Assembly: GCA_030691625.1 (NCBI GenBank) | Contig: JAUYDX010000078.1 | Coordinates: 1 to 63,525, forward strand | Source: Candidatus Omnitrophota bacterium | Lineage (GTDB): Bacteria; Omnitrophota; Gorgyraeia; Gorgyraeales; Gorgyraeaceae | Length of the DNA stretch: 63,525 nt | Direction of reading: 5' to 3' | Shown here: piece by piece, positions 11,216-22,956 of the stretch | Layout of the letters: each line of letters begins with the position of its first letter | Position numbering within the stretch: the stretch's first letter is position 1 | The notes under the pieces: generated by a model | Told to the model about the DNA's origin: nothing | What the model saw: the letters and a program-made list of their open reading frames with translations, nothing else | Database searches by the model: none | Program-made: the position numbers and the translations under genes

Positions 11216-12313
11216 CTATATTTTAACAAAATTCTTTCCGGGCAGCTGTTTCGCGAATTTTTTTATCTCAAGGCTCAGGAGCATACCTGAAATCCTGCCA
11301 AGCTCCATACCTGATTCCCTGCATATATCATCTATATGTATAGGATCGCTGGATAATAAAGTATATACTAAACTTTCATTTTTGTCCAATTTTGTATCTT
11401 CTGTCCAACTTCGCAAGTTGCCAAGATGGCAACTTGCGAAGTTGGACAGGTTAAGTTCTTCAAGGATATCTTCTACCCCCTGGGCTAATTTAGCACCCTG
11501 TTTTATAAGCTTGTTTGTACCTTTAGAGGTATTTGAATCCACTTTACCAGGCACTGCGAAGACATCCCTTCCCTGTTCCAACGCGCAGTCGCATGTGATA
11601 AGCGCTCCGCTTCTTTCAGCTGCCTCCACGCATACCACGCCCAGGGAAAGCCCGCTTATGATCCTGTTTCTTTTAGGGAAATTTCCCCTGTCAGGTATAG
11701 TCTCCATTGGGAATTCGCTGATGACAGCGCCTGAGGCTGAAATTTTTCCAGCTAAGGCTCTGTTTTCCTCAGGATAGATATTGGCCAGGCCTGAACCTAA
11801 AATAGCTATTGTCCTTGCCTTTGCCTTTAACGCGCCTTTATGGCTGGCTGAATCAATGCCCCTTGCAAGGCCTGATACCACAGTGACTCCGTGCGAAGCC
11901 AATTCAAAACCTAATCTCTCGGCTGTCTGAAGCCCATAAAACGAGGCGAGCCTGGAACCGACGATGGCAATGGCTGTATTGTCCTCAGGCAAGATTTCAC
12001 CCTTTACATATAAAACCACTGGCGGGTCATAGATATTCTTTAAATTTTCAGGATAATCTTCGTCCAGAAATGTAATAACCTTTACCCCATACTTTTTTAT
12101 TAAACTCATTTCTTTTTTTAGATCAATATCTTTGATCGCCTGGGGCACCCTGGCGCCTATTATCGGCCCGATCTCTTTTACCCCGGAAATTTCACCGGCA
12201 TCTGCCTTAAAAACCTTTTCGAATGACCCAAAATCTCTTAGTAGCGCCCGCGTCCTAACGCTCCCTATATCCTCCACCATATTAAGCGCAATCAATCTCT
12301 CAGTATCGTTCAT
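11216..12313 (-). CDS. dprA: DNA-processing protein DprA, carrying an in-frame palindromic-element insertion in the linker
   Basis: 365 aa with the GLARGIDSASHKGAL Rossmann-like core and a C-terminal winged-helix-like tail (LLSLEIKKFAKQLPGKNF). Residues 289-305 (LSNFASCHLGNLRSWTE) are encoded by element P1. Confidence 0.9.
   Translation of the reverse strand: MNDTERLIALNMVEDIGSVRTRALLRDFGSFEKVFKADAGEISGVKEIGPIIGARVPQAIKDIDLKKEMSLIKKYGVKVITFLDEDYPENLKNIYDPPVVLYVKGEILPEDNTAIAIVGSRLASFYGLQTAERLGFELASHGVTVVSGLARGIDSASHKGALKAKARTIAILGSGLANIYPEENRALAGKISASGAVISEFPMETIPDRGNFPKRNRIISGLSLGVVCVEAAERSGALITCDCALEQGRDVFAVPGKVDSNTSKGTNKLIKQGAKLAQGVEDILEELNLSNFASCHLGNLRSWTEDTKLDKNESLVYTLLSSDPIHIDDICRESGMELGRISGMLLSLEIKKFAKQLPGKNFVKI
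11401..11449. repeat. palindromic element family P1, located inside the dprA coding sequence
   Basis: 23-bp perfect arms 11401-11423 / 11427-11449 with a 3-nt loop. Confidence 0.9.
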
Positions 12314-12410
12314 AATAGTTCACCCTCCCTATTATATAATACACATGTCGGGTCTATTTTCTTTCAAATTTTTTTAGAATTTTTTAAAGGCGGAGAAGGT
12401 TATCCACAAT

Positions 12411-12436
12411 GTAGGGGACACTTAAGTGTCCCCTAC
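12411..12436. repeat. palindromic element family P5 (GTAGGGGACACTT/AAGTGTCCCCTAC)
   Basis: 26-nt perfect palindrome. A related copy is at 58707-58735. Confidence 0.8.
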
Positions 12437-12510
12437 TGCTGCGGGTATAAAACCGCGCCTATCAGCGTAAATATCAATGTTATATTTATTATTTTATTTA
12501 TCTTTGCCAT
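12433..12510 (-). pseudogene. 5' fragment (25 codons) of a paralogue of the exported NDK-fusion gene at 18342..19676
   Basis: The minus strand encodes MAKINKIINITLIFTLIGAVLYPQQ*, versus MKQINKIINIALIFTLIGAFLTPQH... at 19676. Long identical nucleotide runs are shared (ATAAATAAAATAATAAATATA; ATATTTACGCTGATAGGCGCG). The copy is cut off exactly where palindrome P5 begins. Confidence 0.75.
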
Positions 12511-12519
12511 AACCATATC

Positions 12520-12569
12520 TTCTCGACTTCGCTCCCTTAATGAGCTTGTGTGACCGCTCGAAGAATATT
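12520..12569. repeat. partial copy of element family P3 (left half with an internal 21-bp insertion)
   Basis: TTCTCGACTTCGCTC...GCTCGAAGAATATT, compared with the full copy at 34225-34279. Confidence 0.7.
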
Positions 12570-12572
12570 AAA

Positions 12573-12609
12573 CAACTTTACATTGTGACAATGTCAGAGT
12601 GTAAAGTTG
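12573..12609. repeat. degenerate copy of palindromic element family P2
   Basis: CAACTTTACA...TGTAAAGTTG outer stem with a mostly paired inner stem, directly downstream of the stop of the 1354-aa gene. Confidence 0.65.
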
Positions 12610-12619
12610 ATTAGAGGAG

Positions 12620-15600
12620 TTAAAGCGCAGAACCGGACGTTAGCGCCTGGTTCTCTTTGTCCATCTCTTCTAAGATTTCCTTTAAGCTCTTTTGCCTCAG
12701 CCATTTTATCTTAAAATCTATCAATGCCTCCCCGAATTCATCTATTGAGGCATAATAAAATCTGGAGCGCATAACGCCGTCTAAAATAAATTCATCAAGA
12801 GCCAGTTTTAATTCCTTGCTGCCGTCTATCTCTCCTTGATAGTTAACCATTTCATAATAGTCGCCGGAACCGCCCAACTCTCTGAATTTGAAAGAATCTC
12901 TGATAAAATACACTATCCTGGATATATCCTGCCATAGGGCCTCTTCTCTTTCGGCTTTATTATCAGGATTAAATGATAAATATCCGCTATTTACCACAAG
13001 GATAGGAGAATTTTCCGTGTTATTTGCAAAAAATATAGAATCCTCTTCAAAACGCATAAGGCTGATGCCTTTTTTGTGCAGTTCCCTTAATGCGTCGCAA
13101 ATGCCTATCAACGCATCAAAGACCGCATCCAGATGTTTTTTGCGCGAAAGCCAGTTATCTAAAGATCTTAGATATCTGCCTAAATTTTCGCCGGATATTC
13201 TCTTTCCATCAGATGTTATAAGACTATGCGTAAAAGGATAGTTATCCTGTCTTTCCACTCTTCCAAAAACAGTACCTGTTATTTTTATATTGCCTGCCGC
13301 GATGCCTCCTTCCCGCAGGCCATTACTAAGAGCATATGGTCCACTGCCTTTTATGGAGCAGAATACCCTATGGCCATACGCATGCCCAAAATAAGGCATT
13401 TCATTATCTATCCATCTATGATGCGGTGAAAAACGCGACATATCATAAGAATATTTAGCCAGATAATGTATCGGGTCATCATCCTCTATGATATTTACCA
13501 ATGGCTCAAATTTCCCTCTTAGAGGAAAGGATTCATGGGCATCTATATATATCATGCCCCCTTCAGGATTAGCCATTCTTAAGATCCCGCTAATGACCCT
13601 GGCGCTTACTTTGCGCTGGATAATATTGCCCATATCTAAAAAATAATCCCTATCGTTAATGCCATATTTATCAAACTTGGCTTTAATCAGCCCCATTATA
13701 TAAGAACACATGACCTCGCTTATCTGGTCATACGCCTTTTCCATAATAACCACATCCGCATAGCCCTCAGGAAATACATACTGAGGGTCAAATAACCAAA
13801 CCTCTTCATCATTCTCTAGCAGGTTAACCGTCTCTTCAATCGCTTTTTCAAAAGTCGGAGATGATTCTATGGCATCTTTTATTTTTTCTATGGCCCTGGG
13901 GCGCATCCAGTTAATGTTTAAAAGAAGTAAGTATGTGGAGCTTTTAAGATCTTCGGGCATCCCATACCACGCTTTTTCCAGAGACTCCTTGTTCAGATCA
14001 GCCAATATTATCCGCCTGATGCCTTTTATGCCTTCAAGCGCCTTATAATCAATCCTCCCTGCGCAAAGCACTACAATGGTCTCTTTTTTAGGGGCAGATG
14101 AGACAGCCCAGTTTATATCGCAGTCTCTTTTTAATTTCGCTGATTTATCTTGTGTGCAGGTTTGAGATCCGTATGAATGACTGAGAAAATCCTTTGGAAA
14201 CCCCTTTGCGCCATTAATCACCTTTCCCCTTGATGGCCGTTTGAGATAAGGCTTTAATAAACTGCCTAAATCGCTACCCGAGGCTTCTATAGATGCGAAT
14301 TTTGGCAGGCCATCTTCCTGTAATGCCTGCTTAATACCGCTTTCTATCTTGCCTTTTTGTAAAAACTTTTCTCTCTGCATTAAAACATCCTGCAGTCTGC
14401 TTTCCCCGGAAGGTGTTATCTCAAACATATTATCCTGATTTTTCCTTATAAGACCTGATGCCTCCAGTATCTCAAATGTTTTATTCCAATGCCTTCTTGA
14501 AAAATCAATCAGACCTCTGGATGCATCATGCCTGGGGCGGCCAGGGTCAGGAATCGCCTTAAATACAGTGTCAAAAACAAGTTTCAGCATGGTTTTAACA
14601 TCCTGGTTCCCGGAATGCTTAATTGTATTAAGTAAAAAATTTATCTGAAATTCCTGGGGTATGCCGCTATTAACGCTATCCTTTACATAAAGCGGCTTAT
14701 CCATACCTATAAGCAGGTCTCTTATGCAATAAAGAAATTGATAATCATCCGGTTCCACAAGAAGGTTCAGATTATTCCACAGACCCAGCGGAATCGCATT
14801 GCTCAGACAAAGCGCTATTGCGTCCCGCCTCATGAATTCCCTGATTACCCGCTTTCTTTCCTCAATGAGATCTGTGTATTTTATGGATAATACTGGATTA
14901 GCCCTACTCCTGAAATCTCCTTTAAGCCTCGCCTCCATAGCCTTCCATTCAGGAGAATGCGTCATTTCAAGAAAAAACATATCCTCCTCGTGGCCATTGT
15001 TTCTAGTAAGTTCCCACTGTCTGCCTTCTGGCATCTCGAAAACATGCAGAAAATCATAGTCAGGCAGATCTCTTCTAAGAAACGTCTCTTCATTTATTTC
15101 TCCGCGCACTAGCTGCATAAAAGCCAGAAATCTTCTACTGACAGGGTCATACATATCAACATAAAACTGCCCTGCCGGAAGGACAGCGCTTATAAACGAC
15201 GCATTAGCAAGATAATCAGTAGCTATCTGATTGGAATCCATTATAAGCCTCTCTCTAAATGATTCGTCCTTCATTTGTTCATAAAAATGATTTACTTTCC
15301 GGAAAACAGAATAGCCGTAAGGCGTGAGGACATGAGACGCCAGCTTTAAAAGAATCCCCCTTGCCTCTTTTTCGTCAACGCTTCCGCTCTCTGGAAAACC
15401 GCTCATTAAATCCTTTTCTATTTCCACTGCCCTTCTCTTTAATCCCTCCATGCCGCCTGCAGTCTCCATTGATGCGAGGCTGGATTTGCCAGGCGCAAGC
15501 GGGAGAGAGATAGTAAGCGTAGTACCTTTCCCAGGCTCTGATTCAACATTAATTGTACCGTTATTTCTCTCAATTATAGCTCTTACTGTCCTGAGGCCGC

Positions 15601-16684
15601 GGCCTCCGCCAAGCTCTTTGCTTGAAAAAGACGTTTTATTTTTAAATGCCTCCAATGCCTCCTGCGGCATGCCTGGGCCAGTATCGCTTATTTTCACTAC
15701 CACATGATTATCCTGAAGAAAAGCCTTAATATCTATGGTTCCTTTAAAACCGCGCCTTGCTGTCCTGTCATCAATGCTAATTTTATTCCTATCTCTTTCC
15801 ATAGCTTCTACTGCGTTACGGATTAGATTTAAAAATGCCCTGAAAATTTCCCCTTCGCGGGCAAAGATATATCTTGATTCCTCTTCACAATCAAAATGTA
15901 GCGTATAAAAATGGCTGTTAACCTCTGTATATCTTATGATTTCAAATATTCTTTCAAGGTCTACATTTTTCGTTATGTCCTGGCCTATAAAACTTTTATA
16001 GAAAAGACGCAGGTAGTCTATTGTGATTCTTAACTCATTGCTTCTTTTATAATCTAACTCTTGGCATAATACGCTTACAAAGTCGTCGGTAATAGTATTT
16101 TTAAATTCAGCGAATGTCTTTCTAAAAGCTTCTTCCCATTCAATTCCTTCTTTATCGCTATCAATGCTATCGCCAAGCTTATTTATTATTGAAAACAGTG
16201 CCTTTTTTGCCTCATTGAATTCTTTTGAGTATCTACCTTCTAGTTCTAGCATAAAATATAACTGCGTATAAATATTTCTCATATCGTGTCGTATAGCTCT
16301 CTTTAAATCAATTCCCGGAGAACCGTCTGGCACAAAAAAGATGTCTTTGTCTTCATTACCTTCCAGAGCCTGCCTGTATCTATCCTGATTTTGGATTGGC
16401 AGATACCTGAATATCTCAGCTGTATTAAGTTTCCCCAGAGTGACTCCTGTGCCGCCATGGCCAAATGGATATTGGTGAGTAAACCCCATATACTCAAATA
16501 TATTTTGCAGTGACTTTCCTGAATCAATGTCCTGCCCTATTATTCCATTGTTAGTCTTTAATATTTCACATGCCCGCTTTATGCCAAGCGCCACTATAGT
16601 AGGCCCAAAAACCCTGTTACGATAGTCTTTATGGACTACGAGGCTAGAATTTACAGGACAGATGGCCTGGCCTAAGCCTCTCAT
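12620..16684 (-). CDS. 1354-aa cytoplasmic multidomain protein: GNAT-like stub, complete histidine-kinase core, long unknown middle, Rossmann/SAM-methyltransferase-like segment, degenerate protein-kinase-like C-terminus
   Basis: H-box AIRHDMRNIYTQL; N-box LNLIRNAVEAM; G1 DTGPGMP; G2 GGGRGL; IVVLCAGRID...RIILADLN...ADVVIMEKAY...NPEGGMIYID; LRELHKKGISLMRFEEDSIFF...VVNSGYL. No N-terminal hydrophobic segment. The ATG overlaps the upstream stop (ATGA). Confidence 0.8.
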   Translation of the reverse strand: MRGLGQAICPVNSSLVVHKDYRNRVFGPTIVALGIKRACEILKTNNGIIGQDIDSGKSLQNIFEYMGFTHQYPFGHGGTGVTLGKLNTAEIFRYLPIQNQDRYRQALEGNEDKDIFFVPDGSPGIDLKRAIRHDMRNIYTQLYFMLELEGRYSKEFNEAKKALFSIINKLGDSIDSDKEGIEWEEAFRKTFAEFKNTITDDFVSVLCQELDYKRSNELRITIDYLRLFYKSFIGQDITKNVDLERIFEIIRYTEVNSHFYTLHFDCEEESRYIFAREGEIFRAFLNLIRNAVEAMERDRNKISIDDRTARRGFKGTIDIKAFLQDNHVVVKISDTGPGMPQEALEAFKNKTSFSSKELGGGRGLRTVRAIIERNNGTINVESEPGKGTTLTISLPLAPGKSSLASMETAGGMEGLKRRAVEIEKDLMSGFPESGSVDEKEARGILLKLASHVLTPYGYSVFRKVNHFYEQMKDESFRERLIMDSNQIATDYLANASFISAVLPAGQFYVDMYDPVSRRFLAFMQLVRGEINEETFLRRDLPDYDFLHVFEMPEGRQWELTRNNGHEEDMFFLEMTHSPEWKAMEARLKGDFRSRANPVLSIKYTDLIEERKRVIREFMRRDAIALCLSNAIPLGLWNNLNLLVEPDDYQFLYCIRDLLIGMDKPLYVKDSVNSGIPQEFQINFLLNTIKHSGNQDVKTMLKLVFDTVFKAIPDPGRPRHDASRGLIDFSRRHWNKTFEILEASGLIRKNQDNMFEITPSGESRLQDVLMQREKFLQKGKIESGIKQALQEDGLPKFASIEASGSDLGSLLKPYLKRPSRGKVINGAKGFPKDFLSHSYGSQTCTQDKSAKLKRDCDINWAVSSAPKKETIVVLCAGRIDYKALEGIKGIRRIILADLNKESLEKAWYGMPEDLKSSTYLLLLNINWMRPRAIEKIKDAIESSPTFEKAIEETVNLLENDEEVWLFDPQYVFPEGYADVVIMEKAYDQISEVMCSYIMGLIKAKFDKYGINDRDYFLDMGNIIQRKVSARVISGILRMANPEGGMIYIDAHESFPLRGKFEPLVNIIEDDDPIHYLAKYSYDMSRFSPHHRWIDNEMPYFGHAYGHRVFCSIKGSGPYALSNGLREGGIAAGNIKITGTVFGRVERQDNYPFTHSLITSDGKRISGENLGRYLRSLDNWLSRKKHLDAVFDALIGICDALRELHKKGISLMRFEEDSIFFANNTENSPILVVNSGYLSFNPDNKAEREEALWQDISRIVYFIRDSFKFRELGGSGDYYEMVNYQGEIDGSKELKLALDEFILDGVMRSRFYYASIDEFGEALIDFKIKWLRQKSLKEILEEMDKENQALTSGSAL

Positions 16685-18297
16685 GTCATGCGCACAGATC
16701 TTATTATTTCCGGGTTTTTCTCATATTGAAAACAAAGCATTAATGCGGAGATAACGATGTTTTTTTCCGGATCAACCAGAAGCAGGATTTCATATACCCT
16801 TTTCATTTCTTCTGACTCTAATTCGAGCCGTGAGGCAAGTCTGTCAGGCGTCTTACAGCCAAGAGTAACAAGCATAAAAGGTTCGTTATGAATAGTGGTT
16901 AACTCGCAAGTTTTAAGGACTTTATACGCGCCTGAATCATGTATCCTATCAGCATATTCTAAAAGCATATCTTTAATAGGTTCGATCAGGCCGGGCAAAA
17001 GTCTTTTTGTGGCGTGCAGGACAATCTTTTGCTTATCGCCTTTAAATACCTTTGTATCCTCAGGGGCCTCTTGCCTGAGTCTCTCGTAATACACAGGGAT
17101 ATATTCTGGCGCATAATAAAGATATTCAAATGCCAAAGGCTGCCACCATACACCTGCAAACCAGTTATCACTTTCCAGGATATTTTCAGTGCCAACAGTC
17201 TCCATTTTGGGCTGGCTAGGCGCAAGCGGCAGCCAGACAGTAAACGTAGCGCCTCTTTCAGTTCTATCAGACGGGGAAATCTGCCTTGTTTCCAATTTAT
17301 CGTCAAAGGTTAATTTCCAGGCATCAGCTGATTCGGTTTTAGAATCTACCTGGATCTTGCCGCCTTTCAATTTAAGATACTCCAGAGTCAGGTAAAGGCC
17401 CTGTCCTACTTTCTCTCCCTCTTCAAGCTCTTTTGTGGTAAATCCTTCTTCGAATATGTGAGGTAAAATCTCTTTAGGAATCCCAGGCCCTTTATCAGAA
17501 ACCTTTATTTTAGCCCATCTGCCTTCTTTGGAAGTTTCTATTGTAACCTGGGATGAATATCTTGAAGATCTTAAAGCATTTCCTATAAAATTATCAATGA
17601 TACCGATGATAATCAATGACTCCTCGTCTATGGTCTTGTCAAAGACTAAATCCTCCTGACATAAGGTTAACTTCGAATGCTCTTTATTAGGTCTGGGTAG
17701 AATTCTATTGTAAAAAATTTCAATAATTCTATTCATATCATTGGTGGAAAATAAAATTTGCATAGATTCCGCTAAACCCGAAAGCGTTCTCATGTCTTCT
17801 GTTATAATAGCCTCTATCTCATCAATAATAGACTTTTGTGCCTTACTATTGAACAATCCCCTTGCTTCTTCTATGATTGAGTTGGTTAAACTAATAAGTT
17901 TTTCTATTTTTTCGGAAATTGTACGTAATCTCTCAAAATCCAAATTTGACTCTACACTATTAAACCACCCTTGTAATTGAGATTGGCTTTTCTTGTGCCA
18001 ATTATTAATAGCCTCATTTTCCCGCCATGGTGATTCTAATTCGTTTTTTGCAGAATTAAGACTTTCATACATTGAATATACGCGACCATTAAAAATATGT
18101 AAAATATGTCCCTGCATCAATTGTTTTATTCTATTTCTAAACGAGGTCATTTGTTGAGATTGTATATTTTCTTTCACAAAGCTTCCCTGCATCGGCGGCC
18201 TTAAGGCAGAATCCAAGCCTGAAGCGCAAAATCCCGCGCTTTGGCACAGGAAAATCACTATCAATAATAAACTAAGCGCCTTTTTGTTCTTTGTCAT
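16681..18297 (-). CDS. exported or membrane-anchored histidine-kinase-like ATPase with a degenerate H-box
   Basis: 538 aa with an N-terminal signal or anchor (ALSLLLIVIFLCQSAGFCASG). GHKL motifs are IDNFIGNALRSS, VSDKGPGIP and GQGLYL. The H-box position reads ITEDMRTLSGL, with Glu in place of His. A roughly 170-aa unknown C-terminal region follows. Confidence 0.78.
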   Translation of the reverse strand: MTKNKKALSLLLIVIFLCQSAGFCASGLDSALRPPMQGSFVKENIQSQQMTSFRNRIKQLMQGHILHIFNGRVYSMYESLNSAKNELESPWRENEAINNWHKKSQSQLQGWFNSVESNLDFERLRTISEKIEKLISLTNSIIEEARGLFNSKAQKSIIDEIEAIITEDMRTLSGLAESMQILFSTNDMNRIIEIFYNRILPRPNKEHSKLTLCQEDLVFDKTIDEESLIIIGIIDNFIGNALRSSRYSSQVTIETSKEGRWAKIKVSDKGPGIPKEILPHIFEEGFTTKELEEGEKVGQGLYLTLEYLKLKGGKIQVDSKTESADAWKLTFDDKLETRQISPSDRTERGATFTVWLPLAPSQPKMETVGTENILESDNWFAGVWWQPLAFEYLYYAPEYIPVYYERLRQEAPEDTKVFKGDKQKIVLHATKRLLPGLIEPIKDMLLEYADRIHDSGAYKVLKTCELTTIHNEPFMLVTLGCKTPDRLASRLELESEEMKRVYEILLLVDPEKNIVISALMLCFQYEKNPEIIRSVRMT

Positions 18298-18341
18298 AAA
18301 TTCGTCCGCCTAATCCGGCAAATCTAACCAGGTTATAATAT

Positions 18342-19676
18342 TTAATTTGCTGTCCTGACAGCTTTTAGAGATTCTACATTTACTACGTCAGCGTCTCCTG
18401 ACTCTAGAGCGGCTAAAATACGCTTTAGTCTTTCAGTCTGAATTTTTATATGACTTAGATAGTCATTCATCATACTTGCTAACTTTGCTCTAAGCTCAGG
18501 GTTCTTTATAGCCTCGGCTAACCTCTTTCTATTAGCATCTTCGCTATTAGATAGTATAACCGCATAATCCAAAAGACTCTTTTCCTGAGAATATACAGAG
18601 ACCACATTTGTTAATATTTCCAGATGCTCCATTGCGTTTCTGCAATATAGCAGTATCTCAGGAACTGCCAATCTTCCTTCTTTTGACAGCATTACTGCCA
18701 AGCTTGACCAGCTTCTTGCTTCAACAACGTCTTTGCCAAAAACATGTTCGAATATAGTTACTGCAGATATTGGAAAAAACCTCTGAAGGTCTTGACGAAT
18801 ATGAGATAGGAAAAAATCAATTATACCTTGCACCTCTGCATCAAACTCTTTCAATAAAACCTGCTGGCGTTCTGTCAGGCCGTAAGGAGAAAAATGGACA
18901 ATGCCCTTCAATAACCCTGCCTCATCCTTAAGCGGCGCAGAGCCCAATAAATTATCTATAGTGACCCTGTTTTTTAATATCTCTTCTTCCAATCCGGATA
19001 GTTTATTTTTTATTACTGAATACAGATCATCGTCAAAGATAGCCTCGAGCTCTTCATCTGTAAAAATAATGCTGATCTCGCGCAAGGCCTCTGCCATGGA
19101 ACCCGAGGCATGTATCTTGTTATGCTGCAGATTTATCCCAGAACCACTAGGAACCAGTTGAGTCCTCCTATATCTCAAAGTGCCGGGTTCTGTGCCGTTA
19201 GATTCTCCGGCTAATTTTTTAAACTCCTCTACTGCGTTTTTGGAATCTGTCTTTTGCAAAATCAGAGGCACTGATTCCCCTGATATCAGATATTGAACAA
19301 GCGGATTATAGTATGGCTTATTTTTATGCCTCTCGTCATGTTCCGCATAATGCCTCCTTGCATTCTCTTGTGTATATCGTCTGGGGTTTCCAATATAGAC
19401 TATCTTAAAACCTTTGTCTTTTATCTCGTCTAATATCTCTTTTTGTATATCTTCCCCGGCATCCGGTTTGAACATCGCGAATGTAAAATTCTGGCTCTGT
19501 AAATCTGATAATGTTATAAAAAATGCCTTATCTTTTTTTTCTTGAACTTTTACGGTTTCTTTGGCTAAACTGCCTTGCATCAGCGGCCTCAGAGCATATC
19601 CATGCTGCGGCGTCAAAAACGCGCCTATCAGCGTAAATATTAAAGCTATATTTATTATTTTATTTATCTGTTTCAT
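18342..19676 (-). CDS. exported or membrane-anchored nucleoside-diphosphate-kinase-fold protein fused to a ~230-aa unknown helical domain
   Basis: 444 aa with the signal-like N-terminus MKQINKIINIALIFTLIGAFL. NDK motifs are FAMFKPDA, GFKIVY, ARRHYAEHD, SGESVPLIL, NAVEEFKKLAG, PGTLR, and NKIHASGS...ALREISIIF, with the catalytic His retained. Confidence 0.82.
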   Translation of the reverse strand: MKQINKIINIALIFTLIGAFLTPQHGYALRPLMQGSLAKETVKVQEKKDKAFFITLSDLQSQNFTFAMFKPDAGEDIQKEILDEIKDKGFKIVYIGNPRRYTQENARRHYAEHDERHKNKPYYNPLVQYLISGESVPLILQKTDSKNAVEEFKKLAGESNGTEPGTLRYRRTQLVPSGSGINLQHNKIHASGSMAEALREISIIFTDEELEAIFDDDLYSVIKNKLSGLEEEILKNRVTIDNLLGSAPLKDEAGLLKGIVHFSPYGLTERQQVLLKEFDAEVQGIIDFFLSHIRQDLQRFFPISAVTIFEHVFGKDVVEARSWSSLAVMLSKEGRLAVPEILLYCRNAMEHLEILTNVVSVYSQEKSLLDYAVILSNSEDANRKRLAEAIKNPELRAKLASMMNDYLSHIKIQTERLKRILAALESGDADVVNVESLKAVRTAN

Positions 19677-19687
19677 CGAACCACCCC

Positions 19688-19722
19688 AACCACGTAGGAT
19701 GCCTACGGCAACCTACGTGGTT
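19688..19722. repeat. variant of palindromic element family P4 (AACCACGTAGG ... CCTACGTGGTT)
   Basis: 11-bp arms 19688-19698 / 19712-19722. It sits immediately upstream of the GGGGTGG Shine-Dalgarno and the ATG of the NDK-fusion gene. Confidence 0.75.
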
Positions 19723-19760
19723 TACCATACCTCTTTATAAAGCTCTTCATATCGCTGGAC

Positions 19761-19787
19761 AGAAAAAGGCCATGTTCCCATGGCCTG
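19761..19787 (-). terminator. Rho-independent terminator downstream of aroK
   Basis: The minus strand reads AGGCCATG-GGAA-CATGGCCT followed by TTTTTC: an 8-bp GC-rich stem plus a T-tract, about 57 nt after the aroK stop. Confidence 0.75.
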
Positions 19788-19843
19788 CTTTGAATTGTTA
19801 CTTATTGAATCTATTGAGGTTGTATTATATCAGATTTGATATA

Positions 19844-20344
19844 TTACGTCAATATTTTTATTATTTCCTCTGCAACCTGGTCTATGGTAAGATTATTTGT
19901 ATTTACGCTGAAATCCGCCTTATTGTAATACGGCTCTCTTTTCTTAAGAAGTTCCCCTATCTGCTTTTTAGGGTCAGGGACATTGAGGAGCGGCCTGGTT
20001 TTAATGTTTTTAGTCCTTTTAAGGATAGTGTCAGGAGACGCCTTGAGGCAGATAATGATACCGCTGCTTTTAAGATTCTTGAAATTCTCTTCGTCAATTA
20101 TCGCTCCGCCGCCTGCGGATATAACAGTGTTCTTACGTAAACTTGCCTCTTTAACAACCTCTTTCTCAACTGACCTGAAATGCGGCTCTCCCTTTTTCTC
20201 GAATATATCCTTAATGGACATCTTTTCCCTTGCCTCTATAGCTTCGTCCAGCTCTAAAAAATCCTTCTTGAGCTTCTTTGCCAATAGTTTTCCCACAACG
20301 CTCTTACCCGTACCCATAAAACCCACTAGGATTATATTATTCAT
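19844..20344 (-). CDS. aroK: shikimate kinase
   Basis: 166 aa with the GFMGTGKS P-loop. Confidence 0.9.
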   Translation of the reverse strand: MNNIILVGFMGTGKSVVGKLLAKKLKKDFLELDEAIEAREKMSIKDIFEKKGEPHFRSVEKEVVKEASLRKNTVISAGGGAIIDEENFKNLKSSGIIICLKASPDTILKRTKNIKTRPLLNVPDPKKQIGELLKKREPYYNKADFSVNTNNLTIDQVAEEIIKILT

Positions 20345-20360
20345 ACTGCTATAATATCCA

Positions 20361-20397
20361 AAGTTGACACTTCTGTCAATGACAGAAGTGTCAACTT
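20361..20397. repeat. variant of palindromic element family P2 (AAGTTGACACTTCTGTC-AAT-GACAGAAGTGTCAACTT)
   Basis: 17-bp perfect arms with a 3-nt loop, in the divergent gap between aroK and the plus-strand gene. Confidence 0.85.
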
Positions 20398-20413: not shown

Positions 20414-21031
20414 ATGCTATATGATATACTCTATTCTCAAATGAAAAGATTTTCTGCCGCAACTTTCATATTTACGTTTATTGTCTTTTCAGGCTATGCG
20501 TGGTGCGCTGATTTTAAAGACAAAAACAGCACGCTATGGGATATAAGAAATAAAGACAACTCCATATATCTGAACCGCTTTTCCGCTTCAAAGGACCTTA
20601 CCAGATACGACATAAAAACCTCTCTTTTCGGAGAATCGCAGTGGAATTTCGGTACTTCCAGATGGGATAAGGTGACAGCCGGGCTGGAGGCAAAGAAAAT
20701 CGTTCTGAAATATGTTTATTTAGGAGAATCTATCCAGTTTATTTACGGCGATCTGCTGGATTATATGACATTTGATCCTGGAAATCTTTCTTATGAAACA
20801 ACTGTGAAACTCGGTTTTATATTCCCCTTGTCCAAAAAACTTTCCTTCAGGATATGGAATGAATATTCCTACAACCTGGAACAAGGCGCCGCAGGGCTTA
20901 ATGAGGTCTTAATAGAGATACCTTACAAGGTGAACGAGAATCTGGATGTCGGGATAGGATGGCGCCACACTGACAGGATTCACACCTTTGATTCAGATTA
21001 CGCTACTACTTCGGTTGTCCTACATTTTTAA
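20414..21031 (+). CDS. hypothetical exported protein, possible small outer-membrane beta-barrel
   Basis: 205 aa. The likely true start is MKRFSAATFIFTFIVFSGYAWC (20441). The sequence has alternating aromatic/hydrophilic beta-like segments and ends in ...VVLHF (C-terminal Phe). Confidence 0.55.
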   Translation: MLYDILYSQMKRFSAATFIFTFIVFSGYAWCADFKDKNSTLWDIRNKDNSIYLNRFSASKDLTRYDIKTSLFGESQWNFGTSRWDKVTAGLEAKKIVLKYVYLGESIQFIYGDLLDYMTFDPGNLSYETTVKLGFIFPLSKKLSFRIWNEYSYNLEQGAAGLNEVLIEIPYKVNENLDVGIGWRHTDRIHTFDSDYATTSVVLHF

Positions 21032-22090: not shown

Positions 22091-22139
22091 CTAAACAACT
22101 TTACACTTGTGACAATGTTTGTAGTGTCAAGTTGTTTAG
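22091..22139. repeat. palindromic element family P2, asymmetric-centre copy (left flank of pilD)
   Basis: CTAAACAACTTTACACTTGTGACAATGTTTGTAGTGTCAAGTTGTTTAG. Its reverse complement matches 22911-22956 at 45 of 46 aligned positions. Confidence 0.88.
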
Positions 22140-22903
22140 AGTAAGAATAGGCTCAAAATTTTGTGGCCCCAAACCATTACCACGAAACTCGCTATGGAAA
22201 TATACGGGCCATAAGGTATTATATCCTGTTTTTTCACAAATTTCATGTAAATACCAATGGGCGCCCCGAAAAAAGGCGCCAGGAAAAAAATCAATATCGC
22301 CATCTTCCAGCCTAAAAACGCTCCCAGCATTGCCATAAGCTTTACATCGCCTCCGCCCATGCTCTCTTTTTTAAACGCGAGCTGGCCCAAAACGCCTGTC
22401 AGGTAAATCAAGCCTCCACCCGCGATAATCCCTAATATTGAATTTAAAAGAGCTCTCTGCCATGTAAATGAGCCCTGGAGCCCTGGAAAAATTACGCTCA
22501 ATATAACGCCTAAAAAAATACCTACAATACTGATCCTGTCAGGTATTATCTGAAATTCCAAGTCAATAAATGTGACCGCTATCAGGCTGAATGTAAGTAA
22601 ACTGTAAATCCAGAATACATAATGAAATTTGAAATTGGCATATAAAATAAGGAAACACAAAGCGCTTATTAATTCTACAAGAAAATAGCGCGGAGAAATC
22701 TTTGCCTTGCAAAACCTGCATTTACCAGCCAGCGCAATATAACTGAATATCGGGATATTGTCGTACCAGTTTATGGGCTTTTTGCAGGATACGCACCTTG
22801 AACCAGGGGTAACAATAGATTCTTTGCGCGGGATCCTGTAAATGCACACGTTCAGAAAACTGCCTATCACTAAACCGAATATAAAAATTATCAGTAACGC
22901 CAT
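22136..22903 (-). CDS. pilD: prepilin peptidase (A24 family)
   Basis: CVSCKKPINWYDNIP...CRFCKAKIS zinc motif and GGGDVKLMAMLGAFLGW. Start trimmed from the TTG at 22918 to the ATG at 22903 (MALLIIF...). Confidence 0.88.
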   Translation of the reverse strand: MALLIIFIFGLVIGSFLNVCIYRIPRKESIVTPGSRCVSCKKPINWYDNIPIFSYIALAGKCRFCKAKISPRYFLVELISALCFLILYANFKFHYVFWIYSLLTFSLIAVTFIDLEFQIIPDRISIVGIFLGVILSVIFPGLQGSFTWQRALLNSILGIIAGGGLIYLTGVLGQLAFKKESMGGGDVKLMAMLGAFLGWKMAILIFFLAPFFGAPIGIYMKFVKKQDIIPYGPYISIASFVVMVWGHKILSLFLL

Positions 22904-22910
22904 ATCCCGC

Positions 22911-22956
22911 CTAAACAACTTGACACTACAAACATTGTCACAAGTGTCAAGTTGTT
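22911..22956. repeat. palindromic element family P2, asymmetric-centre copy (right flank of pilD, inverted relative to 22091-22139)
   Basis: CTAAACAACTTGACACTACAAACATTGTCACAAGTGTCAAGTTGTT. Confidence 0.88.

What the first reader, a model, noticed from the sequence alone, without database searches (positions are those of the whole stretch)
12620..19676. Self-contained three-gene operon: exported NDK-fusion, exported degenerate HK-like ATPase and a 1354-aa multidomain histidine kinase, with no response regulator
The three co-directional genes are separated by a 44-nt gap and then an ATGA overlap, and they form their own unit. A hairpin plus T-tract terminator (19761-19787) ends aroK just upstream. 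The downstream side (12314-12619) is a patchwork of repeat fragments. Spot G+C counts are lower than next door: 20/60 at 18001 and 19/60 at 13441, against 31/60 in dprA at 11821. Gene 1 has a signal-like N-terminus, a clear nucleoside-diphosphate-kinase fold with the catalytic His retained, and an unknown ~230-aa domain. Gene 2 has a signal-like N-terminus and a GHKL ATPase whose H-box reads TEDMRT instead of RHDMRN. Gene 3 has no signal. It contains a GNAT-like stub, a complete HK core, about 450 aa I cannot assign, a Rossmann/SAM-MTase-like stretch, and a kinase-like C-terminus lacking HRD/DFG. There is no receiver domain, DNA-binding output or transporter in the locus. NDK and HK both work through phospho-histidine, so a dedicated NDK-to-HK (or NTP-supply) module with two apparently extracytoplasmic components and one giant cytoplasmic integrator is a plausible arrangement that I do not recognise as a described system. 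The paralogue stub at 12433-12510 suggests the cassette family is duplicated and dynamic.
Basis: partly seen in the sequence, partly recalled or inferred. Interest (0 to 1): 0.85.

Follow-up and report, generated by a model that had tools for sequence, protein, structure and literature searches.

The report
Split mosaic exported-enzyme genes in Omnitrophota
The supposed three-gene NDK-to-histidine-kinase operon is really two neighbouring genes, one cut in two by a 5-base duplication, plus a remnant of a third; all belong to a little-known Omnitrophota family that places shuffled enzyme modules behind one shared export-type leader.

Summary
The three ORFs, the NDK domain, both GHKL ATPase domains, the aroK terminator, the leader stub and the lower G+C are all real. 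The interpretation mostly fails.

- **Gene 2 and gene 3 are one gene.** Gene 2's C-terminus and gene 3's N-terminus are halves of a single ~280-aa GNAT-like domain. That domain is continuous in two relatives. A 5-nt duplication (ATGAC|ATGAG) split a ~1,890-aa ORF and created the ATGA overlap. An independent assembly shows the same junction.
- **Gene 2's H-box is not degenerate.** The family-invariant His is H67, not the "TEDMRT" site.
- **Shared leader.** Genes 1 and 2, the stub and their relatives share a Sec-like signal followed by an L-R-x-P motif. Many also end in [S/T]-x-hydrophobic.
- **Variable cargo.** Behind the leader sit NDK, HK-like ATPase, GT2, methyltransferase, the GNAT-like domain and two unannotated modules. 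Some of these modules also occur inside proteins of 1,500 to 6,300 aa.
- **Clustering, not pairing.** Leader genes sit in tandem clusters elsewhere. NDK relatives mostly lack HK neighbours, and HK relatives lack NDK neighbours.

The window is from Omnitrophota, whose long SP/TM proteins rich in HATPase, methyltransferase and GNAT domains are already described. I read this as a new variant of that kind. The proteins are probably exported, and their function is untested.

The parts
19767..19786 (-). Intrinsic-terminator-like hairpin plus T-tract ending aroK, at the upstream boundary of the island
   Evidence: 8-bp stem with 5 GC pairs, followed by TTTTCTG
19688..19722 (-). Strong hairpin in the gene 1 5' UTR, immediately upstream of the GGGGTGG Shine-Dalgarno-like site
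   Evidence: MFE -34.5 kcal/mol for 19670-19766, z = -3.6; no Rfam match
18342..19676 (-). Gene 1 (444 aa): leader (aa 1-35, 19572-19676), NDK domain (aa 65-209, 19050-19484) and an orphan ~195-aa C-terminal region (18345-18929) with no relatives
16681..18297 (-). Gene 2 (538 aa), the N-terminal piece of the split gene: leader with L32-R33-P-P35 (18190-18297), family-invariant His67 (18097-18099), HATPase_c (aa 232-359, 17221-17604) and the N-terminal half of GNAT-like domain X (aa ~375-538, 16684-17175)
16681..16689 (-). Fission junction ATGACATGA. A 5-nt near-duplicate (ATGAC before ATGAG) creates the gene 2 stop and the gene 3 start. Deleting 5 nt restores ...IRSVRM-RGLGQA..., collinear with relatives
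   Evidence: identical in an independent assembly
12620..16684 (-). Gene 3 (1354 aa), the C-terminal piece: C-terminal half of domain X (aa 1-~100, 16385-16684), second HK core (H133 in RHDMRN at 16286-16288, HATPase_c aa 279-397 at 15494-15850), module A (aa ~411-785, 14330-15454, ending in a winged helix), module B (Rossmann-like, aa ~803-1130, 13295-14278) and a C-terminal region (aa 1131-1354, 12623-13294) that ends with the family-type tail GSAL
12569..12613 (-). AT-rich 22-nt-arm hairpin directly after the gene 3 stop, followed by T-rich sequence. Probable terminator
   Evidence: (I4)
12433..12510 (-). Leader-only stub: 25 codons (MAKINKIINITLIFTLIGAVLYPQQ) plus a stop. 85% nt identity to the first 74 nt of gene 1
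   Evidence: D1; 2 matches, 0 expected
12411..12436 (.). Perfect 13+13-nt palindrome overlapping the stub's stop codon. Single copy in the window
   Evidence: (z = -7)

Best explanation
The locus is a low-G+C accessory island in an Omnitrophota genome. It sits between the dprA-topA-xerC/D block and the aroK-aroC block.

It holds members of a lineage-specific family of mosaic proteins built as follows:
- a conserved Sec-type leader (basic n-region, ~15-residue hydrophobic core, small-x-small site);
- an L-R-x-P motif within about 10 residues of that site;
- a variable string of nucleotide- or cofactor-using enzyme modules;
- often a C-terminal [S/T]-x-hydrophobic tail.

Gene 1 is leader + NDK + an orphan C-terminal region.

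Genes 2 and 3 are one ancestral ~1,890-aa gene: leader, HK core 1, GNAT-like domain X, HK core 2, module A with a winged helix, Rossmann-like module B, C-terminal region, GSAL tail. A 5-nt duplication inside domain X cut it and produced a stop/start ATGA overlap.

The 25-codon stub downstream is the remnant of a third family gene.

The NDK-HK adjacency reflects tandem clustering and recombination of leader-bearing genes, not a dedicated phosphorelay.

**Shown:** the anatomy, the split, the family, the module shuffling and the taxon.

**Inferred:**
- The leader directs Sec export, so the products act outside the cytoplasm. That could be the periplasm, the cell surface or a host/prey cell, as proposed for Omnitrophota long proteins.
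- After the split, gene 3 is made by termination-reinitiation without a leader. It is therefore mislocalised or inactive relative to its ancestor.
For: **Split**
- P0095 and P0006 run uninterrupted through '...IRSVRMSGLGQASCPVNSS...'. The window has '...IRSVRMT*' followed by 'MRGLGQAICPVNSS...'.
- The DNA reads cgcATGACATGAgag.
- The Logan assembly of SRR13727536 is 100% identical across 16035-20387.

**Leader**
- L32, R33 and P35 are invariant in the gene 2 family.
- The same leader is on the NDK relatives, on P0170, P0171 and others, and on neighbours of gene 2 relatives in L008-L010.
- In the window only genes 1 and 2 and the stub carry it.

**Module shuffling**
- Each relative shares only one module with the fused protein, and at a different position.
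- Module A also occurs as leaderless ~370-aa proteins and inside a 6,273-aa protein.

**Tail**
- 16 of 30 family members end [ST]-x-hydrophobic, against 6 of 156 generic HKs.
- Gene 3 keeps the tail (GSAL) although it has no leader.

**Taxon and precedent**
- The window's ClpC clusters at >=90% identity with Candidatus Omnitrophota proteins. P0098 is named Omnitrophota.
- Omnitrophota long proteins are 94% SP/TM. Their largest Pfam co-occurrence module is methyltransferase + HATPase_c + GNAT + HAD (10.64898/2026.06.07.730766).
- Most detected domains of the giant proteins are predicted extracellular, and HATPase_c is among the 20 most frequent domains (10.1101/2023.11.21.568195).

**Context**
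- Housekeeping genes lie on both sides and G+C is lower in the island.
Against: - Export is inferred only from hydropathy and the -3/-1 rule. No SignalP or DeepTMHMM run and no experiment supports it.
- NDK, GHKL ATPases and GNAT- or MTase-like modules need ATP, acetyl-CoA or SAM. These are not expected outside the cytoplasm, so a membrane-anchor or other topology remains possible.
- The GNAT assignment of domain X is weak (model pLDDT 56, best Foldseek E 2e-3).
- The family is small and rare in the databases: 3 NDK relatives and 6 gene 2 relatives. Scans of 185k species genomes and of JGI metagenomes found no further close members. Generalisations rest on few, related sequences.
- The split may be functional fission rather than damage.
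- One additional NDK-HK adjacency (L007) keeps a functional link possible.
- The tail motif was noticed post hoc.
Confidence: 0.6

Rival explanations
1. One reading: a dedicated NDK-to-HK module. The NDK phospho-histidine feeds the HK H-box directly, or regenerates ATP for the HK-like ATPases in the same, possibly extracytoplasmic, compartment.
For: - NDK and HK-like genes are adjacent here and in L007.
- Both carry the same leader, so both would reach the same compartment.
- The NDK catalytic His and most active-site residues are intact.
- Both HK cores keep an H-box His and the N/G1/G2 ATP-binding motifs.
- An NDK could supply ATP where ATP is scarce (inference).
Against: - Eight of the nine further contigs that carry a leader-NDK have no HK neighbour. 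L001-L005 and L012 show cupin, MFS/Rnf or NTase-HEPN genes, and L006 carries only the NDK gene. Only L007 has an HK neighbour.
- Four loci with gene 2 relatives have no NDK.
- The 'three components' are really two genes.
- hhalign gives no support for a DHp-like domain in gene 1's C-terminus (probability 0.2).
- No response regulator or other output is present.
Confidence: 0.12
2. Membrane-anchored cytoplasmic signalling proteins. The N-terminal hydrophobic segment is an uncleaved anchor and the enzyme modules face the cytoplasm. The proteins would be orphan or hybrid sensor kinases and nucleotide-metabolism enzymes tethered to the inner membrane, signalling to regulators encoded elsewhere.
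For: - Every cargo domain is normally cytoplasmic and cofactor-dependent.
- The 2026 Omnitrophota preprint reads nearly half of the long proteins as inner-membrane-anchored with cytoplasmic domains, and calls the HATPase/MTase/GNAT module compatible with that reading.
- Module A also exists as leaderless, presumably cytoplasmic, proteins.
Against: - The h-region is short (~15 residues).
- It is preceded by 2-3 Lys and followed by a small-x-small site (GYA|L, CAS|G). That is the pattern of a cleavable Sec signal with the N-terminus inside.
- The positive-inside rule would place the cargo outside.
- The conserved L-R-x-P just after the putative cleavage site is hard to explain for a simple anchor.
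Confidence: 0.2
3. A decaying island. The frameshift in gene 2/3 and the truncated leader stub are steps of pseudogenisation, and the locus no longer has a function.
For: - A 5-nt frameshift lies inside a domain.
- The third gene is reduced to 25 codons and is interrupted at a palindrome.
- Gene 1 carries an orphan C-terminal extension with no relatives and ends RTAN rather than the family-type hydrophobic residue.
- There is no Shine-Dalgarno site before gene 3.
Against: - Both pieces remain fully open (538 and 1,354 codons) and every catalytic motif is intact.
- The duplication creates a perfect stop/start ATGA overlap, which favours reinitiation, and no residue is lost.
- No second lesion is visible.
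Confidence: 0.15
4. The gene 2/gene 3 split is a sequencing or assembly error, and the organism encodes an intact ~1,890-aa protein.
For: - The fused reading is perfectly collinear with relatives.
- MAG assemblies can carry indels.
Against: - A contig assembled by a different pipeline (Logan, SRR13727536) has the identical ATGACATGA.
- A 5-nt insertion is not a typical short-read error.
- Whether the two assemblies used the same reads is unknown.
Confidence: 0.05

Closest known systems
Omnitrophota long/giant multidomain proteins (West-Roberts et al. 2023, bioRxiv 10.1101/2023.11.21.568195; 2026 preprint 10.64898/2026.06.07.730766), 'Module 1' architecture
   Same: - Same phylum.
- N-terminal signal peptide or TM segment.
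- Strings of normally cytoplasmic enzyme domains dominated by HATPase_c, methyltransferase and GNAT.
- Modules A and B of gene 3 recur inside proteins of 1,500-6,273 aa.
- Domains are highly divergent from the Pfam models.
   Different: - Much shorter: 444 aa and about 1,890 aa.
- No internal TM helices.
- No SecA-DEAD, C39 or S8 domains.
- My term searches of both preprints returned no mention of nucleoside diphosphate kinase or NDK. The word 'motif' does not occur in the 2026 preprint. To that extent the L-R-x-P motif, the C-terminal tail, the NDK cargo and the tandem leader-gene clusters appear undescribed.
Secreted or host-targeted nucleoside diphosphate kinases of host-associated bacteria, e.g. 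Waddlia chondrophila WcNdk2 (PMC13318545)
   Same: - An extra NDK with conserved kinase motifs that is thought to act outside the bacterial cytoplasm.
- Waddlia belongs to the Chlamydiota.
   Different: - Gene 1 has a classical Sec-like leader and a 195-aa orphan extension.
- It carries insertions in the Kpn-loop region.
- It scores far below the NCBIfam equivalog cut-offs (77 against 155 bits).
- Neither localisation nor activity has been tested.
Two-component sensor histidine kinases (HisKA/DHp + HATPase_c)
   Same: - HATPase_c with intact N, G1 and G2 boxes.
- A conserved His in a helical region upstream (g2 H67, g3 H133).
   Different: - No Pfam HisKA match.
- The His-to-N-box spacing is about 160-180 residues instead of about 110.
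- Two cores sit in one polypeptide.
- The sensor-less cores lie behind a signal peptide.
- There is no partner regulator nearby.
Polymorphic toxin/effector loci (conserved N-terminal delivery region, variable C-terminal cargo, orphan fragments)
   Same: - A conserved N-terminal targeting region, including nucleotide-level identity between paralogues.
- Interchangeable cargo.
- Tandem arrays.
- A truncated remnant next to full-length genes.
   Different: - The remnant is an N-terminal leader stub, not a C-terminal orphan toxin.
- No immunity genes are present.
- The cargo is kinase- or transferase-like, not a recognised toxin.
- This is an analogy only.

Membership tests
Nucleoside diphosphate kinase (Pfam PF00334) | Profile match above the Pfam gathering score | tested here: met
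   82.7 bits against a cut-off of 27, residues 65-209, profile positions 3-134 of 135
Nucleoside diphosphate kinase (Pfam PF00334) | Catalytic His in the N-x-x-H-[GA]-S motif, plus the Lys, Tyr, Arg and Glu ligands | tested here: met
   NKIHASGS aligns with NVIHASDS of 3vvt. FKPD Lys, HYAEH Tyr, GTLR Arg and REIS Glu are present. There is an 8-residue insertion in the Kpn-loop region
Housekeeping Ndk (NCBIfam equivalogs, e.g. NF001908) | Score above the curated equivalog cut-off | tested here: not met
   best score 77.2 bits against a cut-off of 155
Two-component histidine kinase | HATPase_c catalytic domain | tested here: met
   gene 2 scores 67.7 bits and gene 3 scores 71.4 bits (cut-off 26.4)
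Two-component histidine kinase | HisKA/DHp domain with a phospho-accepting His | tested here: inconclusive
   No HisKA family matches at E <= 1. However, His67 is invariant across 5 gene 2 relatives in an H-x-[LIF]-x-N motif, and gene 3 has RHDMRN
Two-component histidine kinase | Cognate response regulator or receiver domain | tested here: not met
   no receiver in the three proteins; a CheY phmmer search of all window ORFs >= 80 aa found nothing. The rest of the genome was not available
GNAT acetyltransferase (domain X, split across genes 2 and 3) | Profile match or a confident GNAT fold | tested here: inconclusive
   No Pfam or PDB-sequence hit. The AF2 model has pLDDT 56, and the top Foldseek hits are HAT1 and other GNATs at E 2e-3 to 0.4 with TM ~0.2. 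The motif-A-like stretch 'YRNRVFGP' was seen by eye only
Class I SAM-dependent methyltransferase (module B) | Profile match | tested here: not met
   best E-value is 0.07-0.13 in 1-2 of 7 members; only a ~45-residue Rossmann beta-alpha-beta similarity to dehydrogenases and MTases (E 0.016-1)
Protein kinase-like fold (gene 3 C-terminus) | Pkinase or kinase-like profile or structure match | tested here: not met
   no kinase family or PDB chain matches. The region matches only P0169. Its structure was not predicted
Sec (SPase I) signal peptide | Basic n-region, 10-15-residue h-region, small residues at -3 and -1 | tested here: met
   KD19 maxima of 1.84 and 2.25 at the N-termini only, with candidate sites GYA|L (g1) and CAS|G (g2). 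This is a heuristic only, because SignalP and DeepTMHMM were not available
Omnitrophota long-protein 'Module 1' architecture | Omnitrophota origin, SP/TM segment, and co-occurring HATPase_c, methyltransferase and GNAT domains | tested here: inconclusive
   Origin is met, as are SP and HATPase_c. The GNAT and MTase assignments are only fold- or motif-level. The proteins are far shorter than the catalogued long proteins

The most novel reading that the evidence does not exclude
The conserved Sec-like leader with its L-R-x-P motif, together with the [S/T]-x-hydrophobic C-terminal tail, marks a dedicated sorting or secretion route. Ultra-small, host-dependent Omnitrophota would use it to export a recombining arsenal of nucleotide-using enzymes (NDK, HK-like ATPases, acyl-, methyl- and glycosyl-transferases, the unannotated module A) onto or into host or prey cells. 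The leader-coding DNA would serve as the recombination handle that swaps cargo. The NDK would be the first nucleotide-pool effector of this kind.
Probability: 0.22. Interest if true: 0.75.

Novelty: new variant of a known kind. Interest (0 to 1): 0.45.

Why it matters
- **Annotation.** A tempting 'new signalling system' turns out to be a split gene plus a neighbour. The case shows how an ATGA overlap can hide a frameshift inside a domain.
- **A handle on Omnitrophota long proteins.** Their modules are hard to study because the proteins are enormous. Here the same modules appear in small, tractable proteins behind one recognisable leader. The leader motif, the C-terminal tail and the 370-aa module A could be tested directly for export, processing and activity. 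Module A has a confident model and no structural match beyond its winged helix.
- **The open puzzle.** Both preprints note that ATP-, SAM- and acetyl-CoA-dependent domains are predicted to lie outside the cell. If the leader really drives export, these small proteins are a way to address that.

Tried and rejected
- **g1 C-terminus as a DHp-like domain.** I suspected this from 'FFLSHIRQDL'. hhalign against the HK family alignment gave probability 0.2. The region has no relatives. Dropped, and kept only as a weak lead.
- **TEDMRT as gene 2's H-box.** Rejected on the family alignment, which shows His67 invariant. NCBIfam alignment registers also place residue ~165 downstream of the H-box.
- **Genome scan (185k species) with the leader-NDK alignment.** It returned only ordinary NDKs at <=36% identity.
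- **JGI metagenome scan with the gene 2 family.** It returned only generic HATPase matches. Both scans gave no new neighbourhoods.
- **Defence-system reading.** PADLOC gave only a weak HATPase hit to PDC-M43B for gene 2. Rejected.
- **Riboswitch or other known RNA in the UTRs.** No Rfam match.
- **Programmed frameshifting at the junction.** There is no slippery heptamer in cgcatgacatgag. Rejected by inspection.
- **Foldseek of module A against PDB and BFVD.** Only the winged-helix tail matched. The nucleotidyltransferase-like G...DxD pattern remains an unconfirmed inference.
- **Contexts of P0171 and P0175.** Uninformative: a single-gene contig, and an RND efflux neighbourhood.

Full report
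**1. What is at the coordinates**

The minus strand carries three ORFs:
- gene 1, 18342-19676, 444 aa;
- gene 2, 16681-18297, 538 aa;
- gene 3, 12620-16684, 1354 aa.

The spacing is a 44-nt gap and then an ATGA overlap. Upstream, aroK ends with a hairpin plus T-tract at 19767-19786.

Pfam confirms NDK in gene 1 (residues 65-209, 82.7 bits). It confirms HATPase_c in gene 2 (232-359) and gene 3 (279-397). Nothing else matches at E <= 1. Gene 1 aligns with solved NDKs, including the catalytic His (NKIHASGS). It has an 8-residue insertion in the Kpn-loop region. It scores far below the NCBIfam housekeeping-Ndk cut-offs.

The region is moderately G+C-poor: 39.9% against 44.3%, with GC3 36-39% against 44-53% in the neighbours. 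It is not the lowest stretch in the window.

Both flanks are housekeeping: xerC/D, topA and dprA on one side; aroK, aroC, a prepilin peptidase, aroE, leuA and the ilv genes on the other. The window's ClpC falls in a >=90% identity cluster with proteins named Candidatus Omnitrophota bacterium. One gene 2 relative carries the same label. The organism is therefore an Omnitrophota.

**2. Genes 2 and 3 are one gene**

Two relatives of gene 2 also match the start of gene 3: P0095 (334 aa) and P0006 (857 aa, with a GT2 domain). In the alignment both run uninterrupted through '...NIVISGLMLGFEY..SPQRIRSVRMSGLGQASCPVNSSLVVH.DYR.R.FGPTIIALGIKRACEI...'.

The window has '...IRSVRMT*' at the end of gene 2 and 'MRGLGQAICPVNSS...' at the start of gene 3. 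So gene 2 residues ~375-538 and gene 3 residues 1-~100 are the two halves of one ~280-aa domain, which I call X.

The DNA reads cgc ATG AC ATG AGA GGC. Removing five bases (ATGAC, a near-copy of the following ATGAG) gives R-M-R-G-L-G. This is collinear with R-M-S-G-L-G in the relatives, with no residue gained or lost. The ATGA overlap is therefore the scar of a 5-nt duplication that split a ~1,890-aa ORF.

A contig from a different assembly pipeline (Logan, run SRR13727536) is 100% identical over window 16035-20387, junction included. An assembler-specific error is therefore unlikely. I could not check the reads.

There is no slippery site for programmed frameshifting and no Shine-Dalgarno site before gene 3. 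Any gene 3 product would have to come from termination-reinitiation.

**3. Domain X**

X has no Pfam or PDB sequence match. An AlphaFold2 model of P0095, built from only four sequences, is of low confidence (pLDDT 56). Its best Foldseek hits are HAT1 and other GNAT acyltransferases, and they are weak (E 2e-3 to 0.4, TM ~0.2).

It is not a stub, because the other half of the domain ends gene 2.

**4. The H-boxes**

An alignment of gene 2 with four relatives shows one invariant His, H67, in 'GHILHIFNG'. The relatives read HKLRN, HELRN or HKLAN at that position. 'TEDMRT' lies at residues 174-179, about 60 residues before the N-box. It is not conserved in the family.

Gene 2 is therefore not obviously degenerate. 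Gene 3 has RHDMRN at H133. Neither protein matches Pfam HisKA, and the His-to-N-box spacing (160-180 residues) is unusually long. The two HK cores are paralogous only in the ATPase domain. BLAST finds 27% identity there, and a 54-nt DNA repeat links the two domain ends.

**5. A shared leader defines the family**

The leader has this form: M-[KR]-K-I-N-K-I-x-N-I-A-L-I-F-x-L-I-G-x-F..., then a Y/W flanked by small residues, then L-R-[PVI]-P within 0-10 residues. It is carried by:
- gene 1, gene 2 and the downstream stub;
- all three NDK relatives and all six gene 2 relatives;
- more distant members, in looser form with L-[ASG]-P-P.

In the window only genes 1 and 2 and the stub have it. Hydropathy and the -3/-1 rule fit a cleavable Sec signal. 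Gene 3 has no hydrophobic segment at all.

The stub at 12437-12510 encodes MAKINKIINITLIFTLIGAVLYPQQ and then stops. It is 85% identical at the nucleotide level to the start of gene 1. Its stop codon lies inside a perfect 26-nt palindrome.

A second shared feature is the C-terminus. Sixteen of 30 family proteins end [S/T]-x-hydrophobic (RTAL, RTSL, KSSL, GSAL...), against 6 of 156 unrelated histidine kinases. This pattern was noticed post hoc and the sequences are related. Gene 3 ends GSAL. That fits a protein that once ran from the gene 2 leader to the gene 3 tail.

**6. Cargo is modular and shuffled**

A full HMMER search with gene 3 residues 400-1354 resolved two separable modules.

*Module A (gene 3 ~411-785)*
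- It occurs alone behind the leader (P0170).
- It occurs alone without a leader (P0174, P0176, P0177).
- It occurs inside proteins of 1,292 to 6,273 aa that also carry GNAT, PPDK_N, HTH or sigma-70 regions.
- Its AlphaFold2 model is confident (pLDDT 90.8, 17 sequences). Foldseek matched only the C-terminal winged helix, in both PDB and BFVD.
- Invariant G106, P142-D143-x-D145 and D248 sit on a strand / G / helix / DxD-strand arrangement. This recalls Pol-beta-type nucleotidyltransferases. That is my inference, and it is unconfirmed.

*Module B (~803-1130)*
- It is a Rossmann-like domain, found in P0169, P0175, P0183, P0184, P0189 (4,042 aa) and P0192.
- Matches to methyltransferases and dehydrogenases are only sub-threshold.

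*The last ~220 residues of gene 3*
- They match only P0169. The 'kinase-like' idea has no support.

Each relative shares just one module with the repaired gene 2/3 protein, and at a different position. Gene 1's C-terminal ~195 residues have no relatives at all.

**7. Neighbourhoods**

| Loci | Content |
|---|---|
| L001-L005, L012 | Leader-NDK between a cupin gene and MFS/Rnf genes, or an NTase-HEPN pair |
| L006 | Leader-NDK only (954-nt contig) |
| L007 | NDK directly after an HK gene that ends GSAL |
| L008-L011 | Gene 2 relatives with no NDK nearby |

The neighbours of gene 2 relatives are themselves leader + L-R-x-P genes: a 1,049-aa unknown, a 454-aa unknown, a 497-aa methyltransferase and a 438-aa unknown. 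Leader genes therefore come in tandem clusters with varied cargo.

The window's arrangement (NDK gene, HK-rich mosaic gene, leader stub) is one such cluster. HK-like modules are the commonest cargo, so an NDK-HK adjacency seen twice is weak evidence for a dedicated pair.

**8. Relation to what is known**

Two preprints describe Omnitrophota long and giant proteins.
- In the first, most detected domains are predicted extracellular, and HATPase_c is among the top 20 domains. The authors themselves call some of these localisations unlikely (10.1101/2023.11.21.568195).
- In the second, 94% of 916 long proteins carry a signal peptide or TM helices. The largest Pfam co-occurrence module is methyltransferase + HATPase_c + GNAT + HAD (10.64898/2026.06.07.730766).

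The present genes look like small relatives of that class and share modules with it. My term searches returned no occurrence of nucleoside diphosphate kinase or NDK in either preprint. The word 'motif' does not occur in the 2026 preprint. NCBIfam did not match the leader region.

Host-directed NDKs exist in other host-associated bacteria, for example WcNdk2 of Waddlia (PMC13318545). This is an analogy only.

**9. How it most likely works**

*Shown:* anatomy, split, family, shuffling and taxon.

*Inferred, with moderate confidence:* the leader sends these proteins through Sec. Mature proteins would then begin a few residues before L-R-x-P. That motif and the C-terminal tail may serve further sorting or processing. 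The leader-coding DNA, conserved at the nucleotide level between paralogues, is a likely recombination site. That would explain both the cargo swapping and the leader-only remnant.

*Inferred, with low confidence:* the enzymes act on or in a partner cell, where ATP, SAM and acetyl-CoA are available. After the split, gene 2 yields an exported HK core with half a GNAT domain. Gene 3, if translated, yields a leaderless remainder. This is either a recent lesion or a tolerated fission.

The main rivals are a membrane anchor with cytoplasmic enzymes, a genuine NDK-HK functional pair, and plain decay.

**10. Verdict**

The locus is a new variant of a known kind. Three things are of moderate interest:
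- the clean one-gene-in-two result;
- a recognisable leader and tail signature on a shuffled enzyme repertoire;
- a confidently modelled module with no structural match beyond its winged helix.

None of the functional claims has been tested.

Noticed in passing
window 14330-15454 (gene 3 aa ~411-785); P0170, P0174, P0176, P0177: Module A is a ~370-aa domain. It occurs as a stand-alone protein and inside proteins of up to 6,273 aa. Its AF2 model has pLDDT 90.8, but only the C-terminal winged helix finds structural matches in PDB or BFVD. Invariant G106, P142-D143-x-D145 and D248 suggest a Pol-beta-nucleotidyltransferase-like core. This is unconfirmed.
   Followed up: partly
C-termini of g3 (12623-12631) and of family proteins P0006, P0094-P0098, L007-L010 genes, P0170 and others: Family proteins tend to end [S/T]-x-hydrophobic, which resembles a class-I PDZ-ligand pattern: 16 of 30 against 6 of 156 generic HKs. 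Gene 1 ends RTAN instead. This may be a processing or sorting signal. The pattern was noticed post hoc.
   Followed up: partly
window 19688-19722 (-): An 11-bp-stem hairpin lies in the gene 1 5' UTR, right before the Shine-Dalgarno-like GGGGTGG (z = -3.6). It has no Rfam match and could regulate translation.
   Followed up: partly
window 12411-12436: A perfect 26-nt palindrome (GTAGGGGACACTT/AAGTGTCCCCTAC, z = -7) overlaps the stop codon of the leader stub. It is a single copy in the window and has no T-tract. It may mark the deletion or insertion that truncated a third family gene.
   Followed up: partly
window 11401-11449: A perfect 23-nt inverted repeat with a 3-nt spacer lies inside the dprA coding sequence (I2).
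   Followed up: no
window 20361-20397 and ORF 20414-21031 (+): A 17-bp perfect hairpin lies between aroK and a divergent 205-aa ORF. That ORF has a hydrophobic N-terminus, no Pfam match and a C-terminal ...VVLHF. It may be a small outer-membrane beta-barrel protein.
   Followed up: no
L012 1445-2394; L008 6225-7226: A leader-NDK relative sits next to a nucleotidyltransferase/HEPN pair, which looks like a toxin-antitoxin system. A gene 2 relative's cluster is followed by a Fic/RhuM-domain gene. These neighbourhoods contain accessory or mobile-type genes.
   Followed up: no
window 22136-22918 (-): A prepilin (type IV leader) peptidase gene is embedded between aroC and aroE. It shows that type IV pilus or T2SS-type machinery exists in this genome. 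No link to the leader family was tested.
   Followed up: no
window 15481-15534 and 17208-17261: A 54-nt direct repeat (74% identity) covers the ends of the two HATPase domains (...LPLAP...MET.G linkers). It shows that the two HK cores are paralogous, and it could be a module junction used in recombination.
   Followed up: partly
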